Part shown: one piece after another, positions 52,697 to 61,400 of the stretch
Position numbering within the stretch: the stretch's first letter is position 1
Layout of the letters: each line of letters opens with the position of its first letter
Source: Eledone cirrhosa
Taxonomy: Eukaryota
Reading direction: 5' to 3'
DNA length: 64,000 nt
Assembly: GCA_964016885.1 (NCBI GenBank)
Contig: OZ024740.1
Coordinates: forward strand, 91,388,001-91,452,000
The notes under the pieces: generated by a model
The model's database searches: none
Told to the model about the DNA's origin: nothing
Seen by the model: the letters and a program-made list of their open reading frames with translations, nothing else
Made by a program: the position numbers and the translations under genes

Positions 52697-55502
52697 AGAG
52701 ATTACAGTAAACAAAGTTCAGTTTAAGTCGTTTATTTGCTTACAATTGTTTCCTCCAAACCGAGGTTTGGATTCTTCGGAGTAACTATTTATAACATACT
52801 TGCCCTCCTTTTCAACCCAAGAGGCACATAAAACATATGCGCATATTGATCAACAGTGGGGTGACATTCATCAAATGATATAGCATGGCAATTTACATAT
52901 AAAGGTTACAGGATAAAAATAAAATAAAAACAAGAGTGAAAATAAGAGTGAAAATAAAGATAAACATGAAGCGTTGGCAGTCTATGAAGATAAAGCAAGA
53001 GGAAAGCTTAGAGTAGTCAGTGTATGAAACAATCTCCCGTGTAGAATGCACGCGTGTCTTATTTATACATGATTAGAGTGCGTCAGAATGATATTTGCAG
53101 GGTCAGGCAGTTGAAGCTGGCAATCGATCTTATTATGTAGGCTGAATTATTAAGTCATTTATTCTCATACATCTGTATGATATACAGTCTCGGATGCGGG
53201 GAAACACCAAAATATCAAAAACCTTCAACATACTATAAACCTTATTGTATCGTAGGCAAGGCCGTACCACTGTCCTTGCTCACACCACCACTCACATAAT
53301 CCATGAGACGCAATATATATATAGAGAACACGCGTCTATTGTATAATTCGCGGTGGTTCAGCATATAGTCAGGCTATAAACCGTATCCAGTCGGTTCCTA
53401 ATTAATATATCATGCTGTCCAGATTCCGGAAGTGCCTGAATGACAAAGGGGAATTAATGCGTCAGGGGAGGTAACTAGCTAGTTATCTTAGTTACATTAC
53501 TATGCTAAACTACATTAATGGTGATTCAAATACGTGCCTATCATGTGAAGTTATAACTAATATCTAGAGTATGTTACCCATTTATAGGTTAGAGAGTTGT
53601 CTATTAAGAAGTACAAGGGTGTATATATTAGGATGATTACCATCCATTAATTAAGGGGTGTCATATCTGAACGTTCTATAAGAGGAGTCAGACTCTCAGG
53701 TCACTGCTCCATGCAAATGTAATATAACAGTAGGACCTGGTATGGTCCCACTATTATATATGCCACCCGGTAGGCTCCGGGTCATTGCATGCCTGCATCT
53801 CCAGTAAATCTTCGGTATGGTCCGGAGATCCAATCTCTCATATAAATGCACTAGTCTGGCCATCAAGCAATAGACAACCCCCGTCTCAAATATAAATCAA
53901 TTATGTATCACATCTACAAGCTAGAGTGGAGTCTATTAATATGTACTAAAGGAGTTCACATCAAGATGATTACGTGCATAATTCATTGAACTGATCGCTT
54001 ACAGTATATAATCACTTAACAATACGATTATCTATCTAATCATCAATCTATCTCTTGGTGGTAATCCATGCACAGGACTATGCTATCGCAACCAGTACCG
54101 AGTCCCCAATTTATACTAATCTTATATTTGTGCAATGCAGAATAAGTAGTCCACGGTCGAGATATCAGTATTAGAGGTACAAGGGGGTATTCCCAGGGTA
54201 GGTGGTACTAAGATGCTGTCAGTATTATCTTTAGAGTATAGAGATGGGTGTGGATGTGAGGTGTAAGGTGTGCTACTGATGTTAGTTGCTAGGGGTGGTG
54301 CCGGTTCCAGTCTGACATTATTATATATAGGGTTTAAAGTTTTGGAACGAGTGTCGGAAGCGGTGTTGGCAATTTGCGAACACTTCTGATTTTTTATTAA
54401 GGAGATTATGTTTAGAGAAGATGATAGTATGGGTCTCTAGTAGACAGAGGTTACAAAATTTATCAGGTGGTTTGTACGATGTTGCACTACCTACCACTTC
54501 CCATTTAAGTGTATATATTTTATTTTTAGTTTTTAGATAGTGTACGTAGCTAGATAGTGAAGACTGTGTTTTTCGAAAGAGTGGAGGTGCGAATTGTATC
54601 TAGTTTTGAAGCAGTTAGAAGTGGAGCCTATGTAGGTTTCAGAAGAGTTGTTTGTTGTGACTGTACATGAGTATATGATATCCTTGGTTAAGCATTTTTT
54701 ATCTAAAGGGCAGTTTCTACTTGATCTACAGTTACAATTACTATGGGTGCTAGTCTGCCGGTTACTATGCTGTGTAGAAGTTTAGATGTTATCTATAGGG
54801 TTATGGTTATGCGGGTTGTGGTACGCAGAGTTAATGTTTACACTAGTGCTATTACTATTATTTCCATTGATATTACGGTTATTTGTTATAATGTTACTTT
54901 GACTGTTATTTTGAATGTTATTTTGAAGGTTTATTGACCGTTGTGATTTAGTTTGTTGGAAGTAAGAATTAATTTTTCTTTTATTTGTACTAGCTATGTG
55001 GTATGCTAAGTTAGGCGTAGTAGAGTATGAGATCTTATTAGTGTTTTTATTTAAAAGGCCGTGGTACCTGTGGCCGGATGGGAAGTGTTTATCTAGTAGT
55101 GAGAAGAAAGCCCTAGGAAGGTTGGTAGAGACGTTTAAATTGAAAGGGGGGTTGAAAAATGTATTATTTTTTCTTCTATTTCTGTTTTTTATGTCTGGTG
55201 ATTTGTTTCCTTTAATGTTCCTATGGTCATTTCTGTGGTGTGGGTTACTCTTGTTGTTACAATCCCTATTAGTGTGTGTGCAGTTGCTATTCCTATTATT
55301 AAATTTTCCCATGGACATGTTGTGTGAAATAATGTTGTAGCTATGTGTTTTTGTAGGTAGGAACTCTATCCCTGTATTATGGCCTGATCTAGCTAATGCC
55401 TGATTATAATACTGCGAGTTATTGTTAAATGTGTTTATGTCATAGGATAGATTAGAGATTCTATTAGATACTCCCTTAGAGATAGAGTTCAATATAGATT
55501 TA
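52697..55502 (-). mobile_element. Naiad-like PLE family H, 5'-truncated
   Basis: ORF 54782..: PKSI..SNRISNLS, FFNPPF, KHFP, ISYSTTPN; then CNCRSSRNCPL, TYIGSTS, LLNKKSEVFANCQH; ~1.6-kb 3' UTR. Confidence 0.9.
52736..52784 (-). ncRNA. Hammerhead with CCGAAGA core (family H)
   Basis: TTACT-CCGAAGA-A-TCCAAAC(ctcg)GTTTGGA-G-GAAAC-AATT-GTA-AGCAA. Confidence 0.75.
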
Positions 55503-55624
55503 GGGTTGAAAAGGAGGTCAAGTATGTTATAAATAGTTGCTCCGAAGAATCCAAACCTCGGTTTGGAGGAAACAATTGTAAGCAAATAAATGACTTAAAC
55601 TGAACTTTGATTACTGTAATCTCT
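55503..55624 (+). repeat. Inverted ~122-bp pLTR copy at the 5' junction of family H
   Basis: Reverse complement of 52697-52818. Confidence 0.92.
55537..55585 (+). ncRNA. Hammerhead with CCGAAGA core, inverted copy
   Basis: TTGCT-CCGAAGA-A-TCCAAAC(ctcg)GTTTGGA-G-GAAAC-AATT-GTA-AGCAA then AATAAA. Confidence 0.8.
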
Positions 55625-58479: not shown

Positions 58480-61400
58480 ATAATATAAACACAGATTAGA
58501 AGTCAGTCTGAATTACTCCAATGGATAAATACCTCTTCCTTAGTACATTGGTTTAATAATATTAAAGATTAAAATAGTTCTAGATTCACCCAATTTGACG
58601 TTGTAGATTTCTACCCTGCTATCACTCAGACTCGTTTAGCGAAAGCCTTAAATTTCGCTAGAAAGTTTACCAATATTTCTGATATTGAAGAGAATGTCAT
58701 CTTGCATGCTAGAAACACTCTACTCTTTACTAATAATGACACTTGGGTAAAATATCAAACCCAGAGAACCCATTCGATGTCTCAATGGGTTCTTTTGACG
58801 GTGCTGATGTTTGTGATTTAATCGGCCTATTCCTCCTACACACACTTAAAGAAACATTCCCTAACCATATTTTTGTGCTTTATCGAGACGATGCTCTAAT
58901 ACTTTCCCATACAACCATAGGTCATAACTTAGATAGATTAAGGAAAGACTTAATAAAAACATTCGCTAGTTTTAATATTAAAATTACTAATGACAGTATC
59001 CTTACCAATGTTAATTTTCTTGATATAAACCTAGATCTGCCTACTGCTTCTTATAAACCGTACAATAAACCTAATAAACATTTAACATATATAAATAAAG
59101 GCCCTTACCATCCTCCTATAGTTTTTAAAAGCCTTATCCCTAATATTAGCCGTAGGATCTCTACCCTCTCTTCCTCAGAAGCTGTTTTCAATAAGGCATC
59201 CCCTACTATAAAAAAAGCCCTTCAAAATAGCGGATTTAGCGAAGCGATTAAATACATACCCCTCAATACTAACTCTTTTAAATATAATAATAGGAACAGA
59301 AATATAATCTGGTTCACACCCTCTACTCTTTAGCAGTTAAAACTAACGTAGGCAAAACATTCCTAGAGCTCTTAGATAAACATTTCCCTAGAACACATAG
59401 ATAATATAAGTTCTTCAATAGAAACTCTGTCAAAATTAGCTACTCCTGCGGTCACCGTATTAAATCTCATATAATAATAAGAAATCACCCAGAGAACATC
59501 AAAATTGCTCCTGTAGATTAAAAAGTGAATGCCCATTACATGGTAAATACAACACCAAAGCCATTGTATAAGCGGCTAAAGTGACAACCATCAGCAACAA
59601 CCAACCAGCCACCAGCGAACGTTATCTGGGTATGACACAACACACATTCAAAACGCGTTATTACTCACATGTCGCATCTTTCCGACATCCAGAAAAAAAA
59701 TTCACAACAGCTCTGGCTAGCAGAATATGGGATTTGAAAGAACAATGTATCCAATATAAATTGGATTGGTGAATTTTGAACAAATCTAAAGAATATGCAA
59801 GAGGAAGAAGAAGATGCACACTCTGCATAAGTGAAAAATATTGGATTTTACCGAACCTAAAACCACCCAAAACTTCCTAAATACAAAAACAGAAATGTTC
59901 ACCAGTTGCCCACACATGAAATCACACTTGCTTTCCAGCTCATATAAACTTAACTGACTTTCAGATACTTATCCTCCATGAACTCTTATTCTTCACTTTC
60001 CTTAAATTATCCTCTTTACAGATTTCTCTTTCTGATTTACTTTCATTTTTAACTTTATTTTTAATTTTTTTATTTTATTTTTACTTTTACTTCACATCCA
60101 ACAGTAACCCCCCAAAAAAAACTTTTCGATTCCCATACCTAATATCTTCACATTCCACATTATACTTCCCAATTTTCTTTCACAACCTAATAATATTGTC
60201 ACTTGCGTTTTCCACTCCAGATATATTCTGTTGTTTCTCAGCCGATTTTATATGGCTGTTTTATAATCTGTATCTATGCGTGTGAGTGTGCATATGTGCG
60301 CATACGTTCTGTATATGTATACGAACGCCTCCGTATGTGTGCGTGCGTACGTATATATATGTGTGTGTATGTGTGTTATATCTTTTTTTTATATCTATAT
60401 TTTTACATACTTATTTATACGTGAGAGTGTATGCGGGTGAATGTATGTGTATGTGTATGTATATGTGTGTATATGTATACGTATGTATGGGTGTGTATGT
60501 ATATATGTATATATATATATATATATATATAGTCGCGTACGTAGGTGTGATTAGATATACATGTGGTGATATATATATATATATATATATATATATATAT
60601 ATATATATATATTACTTGGCCGTTTGTTTTGGATGTGCGGATAATTTATATTTATATTTATATATATATATATATATATATACGTGCCTCGTGTGTATGT
60701 ATGTACGCATGCATGCGCTTTTGCCTGTACGTGTTTGTGTGTATACATATTTATATATATATATATGTGTGTGTACGTGCGAACCTATTTTTGTTTTCTT
60801 TTTTCTAGTGTTAATTGATTACTTTCTCTTTGATTTAACAAATTGTTTCATTCTCATATATTGTTTCATTTTTATACATATATCGAGAATGACCCTTCTT
60901 CTTACTATTATACTCCCTTCCCTCTTTATCATCCGCATATAAGTGACCGCTCGTGTGTGTTTGTTTATACGCGTGCTTTCATACTGGTATGTGTATTTAA
61001 TGCCTCTATCTAGATGCGTGTTAACTATATTATGTTACAATTTCTTTTTCAACTCATATTATATAAGTATTTGTGGTCACATATACACAAATATACTTGC
61101 CCTCATATATGTACTTACGCACACATTTTCACCATACACATGCATTTGTACATACACACATGTGTACATTTGTGAGTGTATAAACATATATATACACATA
61201 CCCTAACTATATTTCCTTATTTTTTTATATATCTCTTGAATTACTTTTATCTATATATTTTTTGCGCGGTAAACTCTTGCCTTTCTTGAGGAGACTTTTC
61301 AAATATTTCACTATGTTTTAAATTGCCTAGTCCGACGAACGAATGAGGACGTTTTTCGTATTCGTCTTATTCGGGAAACCTCTGGTAATGAGGTAATTAT

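What the first reader, a model, noticed from the sequence alone, without database searches (positions are those of the whole stretch)
52736..61398. CCGANGA-core hammerheads with an A.G mismatch under stem II in two different families
Seen: both family H copies read CCGAAGA-A-[stem]-G-GAAAC, and family I reads CCGACGA-A-[stem]-G-GAAAC. Families D and 43477 also have an extra A.N at that position. Known: U4 of CUGANGA is normally highly conserved. Inference: the same change in two families with intact stems suggests a genuine variant core, perhaps compensated by the extra A.G, rather than decay.
Basis: partly seen in the sequence, partly recalled or inferred. Interest (0 to 1): 0.75.

Follow-up and report, generated by a model that had tools for sequence, protein, structure and literature searches.

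The report
Penelope hammerheads with C4 core
Two families of jumping genes in this animal genome carry a hammerhead self-cutting RNA motif with C in place of a normally fixed U in thousands of copies, so the change is inherited rather than decay, but it is not tied to the neighbouring A·G mismatch and likely leaves a slowed ribozyme whose cutting is untested.

Summary
The three motifs are real: type I hammerheads in the terminal repeats of two Penelope-like retrotransposon families with Hydra-clade motifs (RTs about 40% identical). In family H, C4 is fixed: 3,823 copies against 55 with another base. In family I's lineage it is not: 1,268 C4 against 2,021 U4, all with the same A·G.

The A·G is not an extra pair. 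It replaces the G10.1–C11.1 pair, a position that varies freely here. C4 persists through H-related subfamilies closing with U–A, C·A, C·U, C·C and A·G, and A·G came last. In I, A·G came first, and C4 arose and apparently reverted. A small family has C4 with a normal G–C (19 of 22). Compensation by A·G is therefore not supported; a heritable variant core is.

The other core bases, the stems and a palindromic dimer stem III are kept, so I read these as likely slowed, dimer-dependent ribozymes. Cleavage is untested, and no RNA run was listed. U4C is known from viroid variants, and this scan noted it before in other genomes and elsewhere in this one. New variant of a known kind.

The parts
52736..52785 (-). 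Family H hammerhead, 3' copy (core starts 52779; C4; A10.1.G11.1; predicted cut after A17 at 52741); private A.C mismatch in stem I
52697..55506 (-). 5'-truncated, inverted family H Penelope-like copy: 3' part of the RT/GIY-YIG ORF (54324-55504, frameshifted), 1.5-kb 3' UTR, hammerhead, short tail ending at a (TA)n/(GA)n run
   Evidence: blastn 94.7% to full-length L091; tblastn 92-96%
55503..55795 (+). Family H pLTR plus 5' UTR stub, ending before the ORF at a (TA)n run
   Evidence: 98% to L091
55536..55585 (+). Family H hammerhead: stem I 55537-41/55581-85, core 55542-48, A10.1 55549, stem II 55550-67, G11.1 55568, GAAA 55569-72, palindromic stem III ACAAUUGU 55572-79, predicted cut after 55580
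58470..61592 (+). 5'-truncated, broken family I Penelope-like copy (ORF pieces 58492-59850, long 3' UTR, hammerhead, tail into TA repeat)
   Evidence: blastn 88-93% to L124; tblastn
61321..61398 (+). Family I hammerhead: long stem I (about 11 bp in the family), core CCGACGA 61332-38, A10.1 61339, stem II 61340-73, G11.1 61374, stem III ACC-UCU-GGU, predicted cut after 61387
57172..57412 (.). Unrelated inverted pair of U4 hammerheads (57200 -, 57370 +) with a bulged base after A9 and G-C closure; not part of the variant

Best explanation
These are type I hammerhead motifs in the terminal repeats of two separately evolved Penelope-like retrotransposon families, in which U4-to-C and loss of the G10.1-C11.1 pair are independent inherited changes that likely leave a slow, dimer-dependent ribozyme. 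Shown: the motif, its place in the pLTR, the copy counts, and the uncoupling of C4 from A.G. Inferred: two copies in a tandem or inverted transcript pair through the palindromic stem III (H) and cut after GUA, probably with help from the element's protein, to trim read-through RNA. Inferred: because genomic copies end about 45 nt beyond the cut site, the RNA that is reverse-transcribed must still be uncut at its 3' hammerhead (or be re-joined), so fast cleavage is not needed and rate-lowering changes are tolerated while the catalytic bases and the fold are kept.
For: C4 fixed in H, 3,823 vs 55. H superfamily pattern: 8,596 C4 vs 4,246 U4, the U4 rows being mostly sister families. Core-free search of older subfamilies: 3,752 copies; in the first 100, C4 94, U 5, A 1, every other core base at least 94, while N7, 10.1 and 11.1 vary (by eye; 30 loci scripted). 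Upstream flank identity between H and the U-A subfamily is 82 of 130 while 11 core bases are unchanged (0.63^11 is about 0.006, hand arithmetic). Stem III is self-complementary in 85 of 90 C4 copies, with an AAUU-to-AGCU double change and an A-U to G-C change in stem II; 89.9% of cells paired, covariation score reached by 2 of 500 shuffles (18 hand-picked sequences). The double-hammerhead fold of H is -32.4 kcal/mol against a minimum of -32.5. Natural U4C is reported as tolerated in viroid RNAs (PMC3088659 passage; PMC9608096 passage). A PLE hammerhead was protein-assisted and not needed for insertion in vitro (PMC11167929 passages).
Against: No cleavage data. Retention of C4 alone across 37% flank divergence is not significant by itself, and C4 apparently reverted to U in family I, so it may be mildly harmful. 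G8 was changed in 6 of the first 100 copies, G8C three times (two are one inverted pair) and G8A twice, which hints that dead cores can be copied. Only 3 of 16 pairs show a change on both sides, reached by 180 of 500 shuffles, and related sequences inflate the covariation test. With G11.1, C3/C4 are predicted to pair with G11.1/G12 (pairing probability 0.6-0.8), an off-state. Metazoan PLE hammerheads show low activity even with U4 (PMC4209133).
Confidence: 0.58

Rival explanations
1. The hammerhead fold is kept for a non-catalytic role, such as a binding or positioning signal for the element's RT/endonuclease near the reverse-transcription start, and the C4 forms would not cut at a useful rate.
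For: Catalytic mutants did not affect insertion in vitro and no RNA ends were seen at the site for the anole element (PMC11167929 passages). Many closing pairs are tolerated. Repeated G8 changes among copies. H expanded massively with two departures from consensus.
Against: All catalytic positions, the NUH triplet (GUA/GUC, never G17 in the rows parsed, though my patterns excluded G17) and the dimer palindrome are kept while N7, H17 and loop II, the positions free in an active hammerhead (established knowledge), change.
Confidence: 0.24
2. A.G at 10.1/11.1 structurally compensates for C4, giving a coupled alternative core.
For: Both window families show both changes, and the two largest C4 expansions in the window's families carry A.G (only 77 H-type copies lack G11.1).
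Against: A.G with U4 is commoner than with C4 in family I (2,021 vs 1,268). C4 goes with U-A 22, A.G 17, C.A 17, C.U 16 and five rarer pairs among 85 H-clade copies (sample chosen to include non-A.G copies). The order of the two changes is opposite in the two lineages.
Confidence: 0.05
3. Weaker epistasis: C4 would spread easily only once the G10.1-C11.1 pair is gone, whatever replaces it.
For: With G..C closure, C4 has 362 matches (control 269) against 17,400 for U4 (control 1,510); both big C4 lineages lack G-C.
Against: Counts are copies, not origins (three origins seen here). One small family is C4 with G-C in 19 of 22 copies. Large non-G-C families stay U4 (3 of the first 100 C4 in a 21,620-copy U.U family; 43491 family).
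Confidence: 0.08
4. C4 plus G11.1 would form a selected off-switch: the core pairs with G11.1-G12-A13 until protein or dimerisation opens it.
For: RNAfold gives U2.1-C3-C4 paired to G11.1-G12-A13 in H and a similar helix in I; the off-state and the double hammerhead are within 0.1 kcal/mol.
Against: Most C4 subfamilies lack G11.1, and most family I copies with G11.1 have U4. The folding model ignores core tertiary contacts.
Confidence: 0.05

Closest known systems
Hammerheads of Hydra-clade Penelope-like elements (Craig et al. 2021, PMC8557442; Hydra section, passages and File S2 table read)
   Same: Type I layout at the 3' end/pLTR, short palindromic stem III, (TA)n targets, and a non-canonical 10.1/11.1 (many rows read ctgatgat..tgaa, i.e. 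U.U).
   Different: Every Hydra row of File S2 has U4, and none has A.G at 10.1/11.1. Family H is 4.3 kb, longer than the <3 kb given as usual.
Minimal hammerheads of metazoan PLEs (Cervera and de la Pena 2014, PMC4209133; main text parts 1-2 of 4 and supplement file 2 part 2 read, file 1 not searchable)
   Same: In pLTRs, dimer-dependent, long stem II, family-level core variants (U3-A8).
   Different: Their consensus has a single bulged base after A9 and a 'highly conserved' G10.1-C11.1; no C4 core was in the rows read or found by text search.
Natural U4C in viroid hammerheads (PLMVd variant, Ambros and Flores 1998, not held and known only through passages of PMC3088659 and PMC9608096; CtaHVd-LR1 variants, PMC9608096 passages)
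   Same: Same CUGA-to-CCGA change; described as reducing in vitro activity but allowing infectivity (PMC3088659) or as not affecting self-cleaving capability (PMC9608096).
   Different: There it is a minority variant in an RNA with tertiary loop contacts; here it is fixed in thousands of DNA copies, on top of a lost G10.1-C11.1 pair.
Poseidon element of the green anole (PMC11167929, passages)
   Same: pLTR hammerhead and 3' tail beyond the cut site.
   Different: Canonical core, different clade; shown to be protein-assisted, which is untested here.

Membership tests
Type I hammerhead ribozyme | Three helices around the core in type I order | tested here: met
Type I hammerhead ribozyme | C3, G5, A6, G8, A9, G12, A13, A14, A15.1-U16.1 and NUH | tested here: met
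   All present in the three window copies; at least 94 of 100 per core position in the core-free search
Type I hammerhead ribozyme | U4 of CUGANGA | tested here: not met
   C4 in 3,823 of 3,878 H copies; filed as a variant, not a canonical member
Type I hammerhead ribozyme | R10.1-Y11.1 (usually G-C) closing pair | tested here: not met
   A.G in H and I
Type I hammerhead ribozyme | Site-specific self-cleavage | not testable with these tools
   Needs a bench assay; no RNA run listed
Type I hammerhead ribozyme | Match to an Rfam hammerhead model | tested here: not met
   No hammerhead family among 90 matches at E up to 1 in the window, canonical ones included
Hydra-clade Penelope-like element | Single ORF, RT followed by C-terminal GIY-YIG | tested here: met
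   760-aa open frame in L091 with YRDD and IIYSC..TYIG; read from motifs, Pfam gave no hit
Hydra-clade Penelope-like element | RWK-like motif and DKT in place of DKG | tested here: met
   H: RWR and DKT; I: RWN and DKT; definition
Hydra-clade Penelope-like element | CxCX5C linker, CxxC and CxH in the endonuclease | tested here: met
   H: CNCRSSRTC, CNLC, CQH; in I seen only in broken copies
Hydra-clade Penelope-like element | pLTR, partial tandem and inverted 5'-truncated copy, (TA)n target | tested here: met
Hydra-clade Penelope-like element | Groups with reference Hydra RTs in a tree | not tested
   Trees held only elements of this genome

The most novel reading that the evidence does not exclude
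Penelope-type hammerheads have a second working active-site geometry, C4 with no G10.1-C11.1 pair, that is switched on by dimerisation and the element's protein, has evolved repeatedly, and is invisible to CUGANGA-based searches; this genome holds a natural allelic ladder that maps it.
Probability: 0.15. Interest if true: 0.72.

Novelty: new variant of a known kind. Interest (0 to 1): 0.42.

Why it matters
Whether Penelope-like elements need their hammerhead to cut is open. This genome supplies a natural series in elements that spread well: C4 with U-A, C.A, C.U, C.C, A.G and G-C, and A.G with both U4 and C4 in one lineage, including an apparent reversion. A small kinetic panel on these natural sequences would show how much activity such an element needs. 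In practice, CUGANGA descriptors miss about 10,000 motifs in this genome (8,596 plus 1,268).

Tried and rejected
Rfam scan: no hammerhead hit. Pfam: no RT or GIY-YIG hit. The repeat finder was swamped by microsatellites. RNA evidence: no RNA holder listed. The four listed runs (one study, kind unknown, contigs) hold the element and list no other letter at position 4 above 10 in 100; they are not counted as independent. The first family I DNA tree mixed in non-homologous flanks and was discarded; crashed; one search kept only 38 of 95 copies and was redone (71 of 95). CpG decay as the source of U4 in family I was rejected because U4 follows subfamily-diagnostic letters (15 of 15 in the CGCCTCA group, 5 of 5 in the GCGG group, 4 of 44 in the window's group). 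Two other families with C4 rows proved to be U4 families (8 of the first 100 of 4,964; 3 of the first 100 of 21,620). Literature searches for U4C, CCGANGA, CCGAUGA and related terms found no report of a C4 PLE family; the CCGAUGA hit was an unrelated primer. Lunse et al. 2017 on small PLE hammerhead variants, Nelson and Uhlenbeck 2008, Martick and Scott 2006 and Ambros and Flores 1998 were not held; the first could already describe such variants.
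Full report
OBSERVATION. The window holds CCGAAGA-A-[stem]-G-GAAAC at 55542 (+) and 52779 (-) and CCGACGA-A-[stem]-G-GAAAC at 61332 (+). Each is a complete type I hammerhead with a GUA triplet. In H, stem III is the palindrome ACAAUUGU, which can only form properly between two copies; in I it is ACC-UCU-GGU, and stem I is about 11 bp. Two of the three window copies have one private stem I mismatch. Rfam finds no hammerhead in the window, canonical ones included.

WHAT CARRIES THEM. Both motifs lie in the terminal repeats of Penelope-like retrotransposons. Full-length H is a 4.3-kb unit between two hammerheads with a 760-aa RT/GIY-YIG frame. I is about 3.2 kb. Both show the Hydra-clade motifs defined by Craig et al. 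2021 (PMC8557442, section read): RWR or RWN, DKT, and in H CxCX5C, CxxC and CxH; both end in TA repeats. The window's H insertion is an inverted 5'-truncated copy (52697-55506) joined to a pLTR stub (55503-55795); the I copy (58470-61592) is truncated and broken. H is young: 40 of the 43 listed matches are 100% identical.

IS C4 INHERITED? In H, yes. A 25-mer occurs 3,823 times with C4 and 55 times with another base (T 31, A 15, G 9, counted from the list). A wider pattern gives 8,596 C4 and 4,246 U4; the U4 rows are mostly sister families with other stem II sequences. A pattern that fixes only the stems and leaves the core free finds 3,752 older H-related copies; in the first 100, position 4 is C 94, T 5, A 1 by eye (25 C and 5 T in the 30 loci scripted). 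For comparison, two U4 families show C4 in 8 and 3 of their first 100 rows. In the family I lineage C4 is a minority: 1,268 C4 against 2,021 U4. U4 there follows subfamily-diagnostic letters, so it is not just CpG decay.

ARE H AND I INDEPENDENT? Their RTs are 39-40% identical. In a FastTree of 29 of 30 elements (one dropped for having under 200 residues), the C4 H clade has support 1.0 and its sister is a U4 clade (joined at 0.998); family I is a separate long branch. Two links between RT and hammerhead (L191, L273) are uncertain. A third, small family has C4 in 19 of 22 copies with a normal G-C pair. That makes three origins seen here.

THE A.G IS A SUBSTITUTION AND IS NOT COUPLED TO C4. Sister families of H have G-C, G.U, U.U or A.A at the same place before the same TCC..GGA stem, so the A.G replaces pair 10.1-11.1. 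Among 85 C4 copies of the H clade in my loci (chosen to include non-A.G copies) the pair is U-A 22, A.G 17, C.A 17, C.U 16, A.A 5, A-U 3, C.C 2, U.U 2, G.U 1. The short-sequence tree orders them as a ladder from U-A through C.A, C.U and C.C to A.G, with A.G last (many nodes are weak, but the RT tree agrees in placing U-A basal and A.G at the tip). In family I the A.G is constant while position 4 goes U, then C, then apparently back to U in a nested subfamily (71 of 95 copies, rooted on the most divergent U4 copy; nested nodes 0.97, 0.94, 0.95, 1.0). The 43491 family is U4 with A.C. A residual skew remains: with G..C closure C4 is rare (362, control 269, against 17,400, control 1,510), but these are copies of few lineages.

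IS THE FOLD UNDER SELECTION? Between H and the U-A subfamily the upstream flank is 82 of 130 identical while 11 core bases are unchanged. Across subfamilies the changes fall on N7, H17, loop II and 10.1/11.1. Stem III stays self-complementary in 85 of 90 C4 copies (the pattern fixed its outer letters), including an AAUU-to-AGCU double change. On 18 hand-picked sequences 89.9% of cells pair; the covariation score is reached by 2 of 500 shuffles, but the number of doubly changed pairs (3 of 16) by 180 of 500, so covariation support is modest. Against strict need: G8 is changed in 6 of 100 copies, with repeats. Folding predicts the double hammerhead as the best dimer for the C.A form and the U4 form; for natural H it ties (-32.4 against -32.5 kcal/mol) with an off-state in which C3/C4 pair with G11.1/G12. 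If anything, G11.1 works against C4 in this model.

MECHANISM. I commit to a slowed, dimer-dependent, probably protein-assisted ribozyme (0.58). Shown: anatomy, counts, uncoupling. Inferred: dimerisation through stem III, cleavage after GUA, low rate. The reasoning is that H copies end about 45 nt past the cut site, so the template for reverse transcription keeps that hammerhead uncut or re-joined. In the anole element the hammerhead cut only with protein, and its mutants still inserted (PMC11167929 passages). The main rival is a non-catalytic structural role (0.24). Expression and cleavage could not be examined.

COMPARISON WITH WHAT IS KNOWN. U4C is known as a rare, tolerated variant in viroid RNAs (PMC3088659 passages and section 8; PMC9608096 passages). 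U10.1.U11.1 is known and is common in Craig's Hydra table, where all rows are U4 and none is A.G. Cervera and de la Pena call G10.1-C11.1 highly conserved and list no C4 in the parts I read (one supplement file not searchable). Ten library searches found no C4 PLE family, but Lunse et al. 2017 was not held and may cover it. This scan noted U4C PLE hammerheads in five windows of other genomes and one other place in this genome; these are unchecked AI notes and I do not count them as support.

VERDICT. A real, heritable, repeatedly evolved core variant of PLE hammerheads; the proposed A.G compensation is not supported. New variant of a known kind, interest 0.42.

Noticed in passing
G000:C1:5738326-5752444 and C1:14044535-14051131: Tandem arrays with a unit of about 466-469 bp, each holding a canonical U4/G-C hammerhead; they look like non-LTR retrozymes.
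   Followed up: no
genome-wide, e.g. G000:C1:349660: A 21,620-copy hammerhead family with U10.1.U11.1 and a 3-bp stem II, often in tight inverted pairs.
   Followed up: partly
window 43477-43560 +: Hammerhead with U4, A10.1.C11.1, a long stem II insert and palindromic stem III ACCAUGGU; 122 copies.
   Followed up: yes
window 27031-31598 and 31687-38264: Two large inverted-repeat structures around other Hydra-like ORFs (one of about 768 aa at 34678-36813, minus strand); my type I scans found no clear hammerhead in their arms.
   Followed up: partly
G000:C1:9979125, 9979636, 26463020, 25007588, 46153269: H-related copies with G8 changed to C or A, each change seen more than once; possible small dead-core subfamilies.
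   Followed up: no
G000:C1:24429781 and 21 more: Small family with C4 (19 of 22), canonical G-C and palindromic stem III ACACGUGU.
   Followed up: partly
control: The reversed-pattern control was unexpectedly high (5,426 against 10,623), which suggests some repeat matches the motif read backwards; unexplained.
   Followed up: no
window 55845-56579 and 50216-52374: Fragments of further Hydra-like elements flank the H insertion.
   Followed up: no
window 7334-7533: Assembly gap of 200 N.
   Followed up: no
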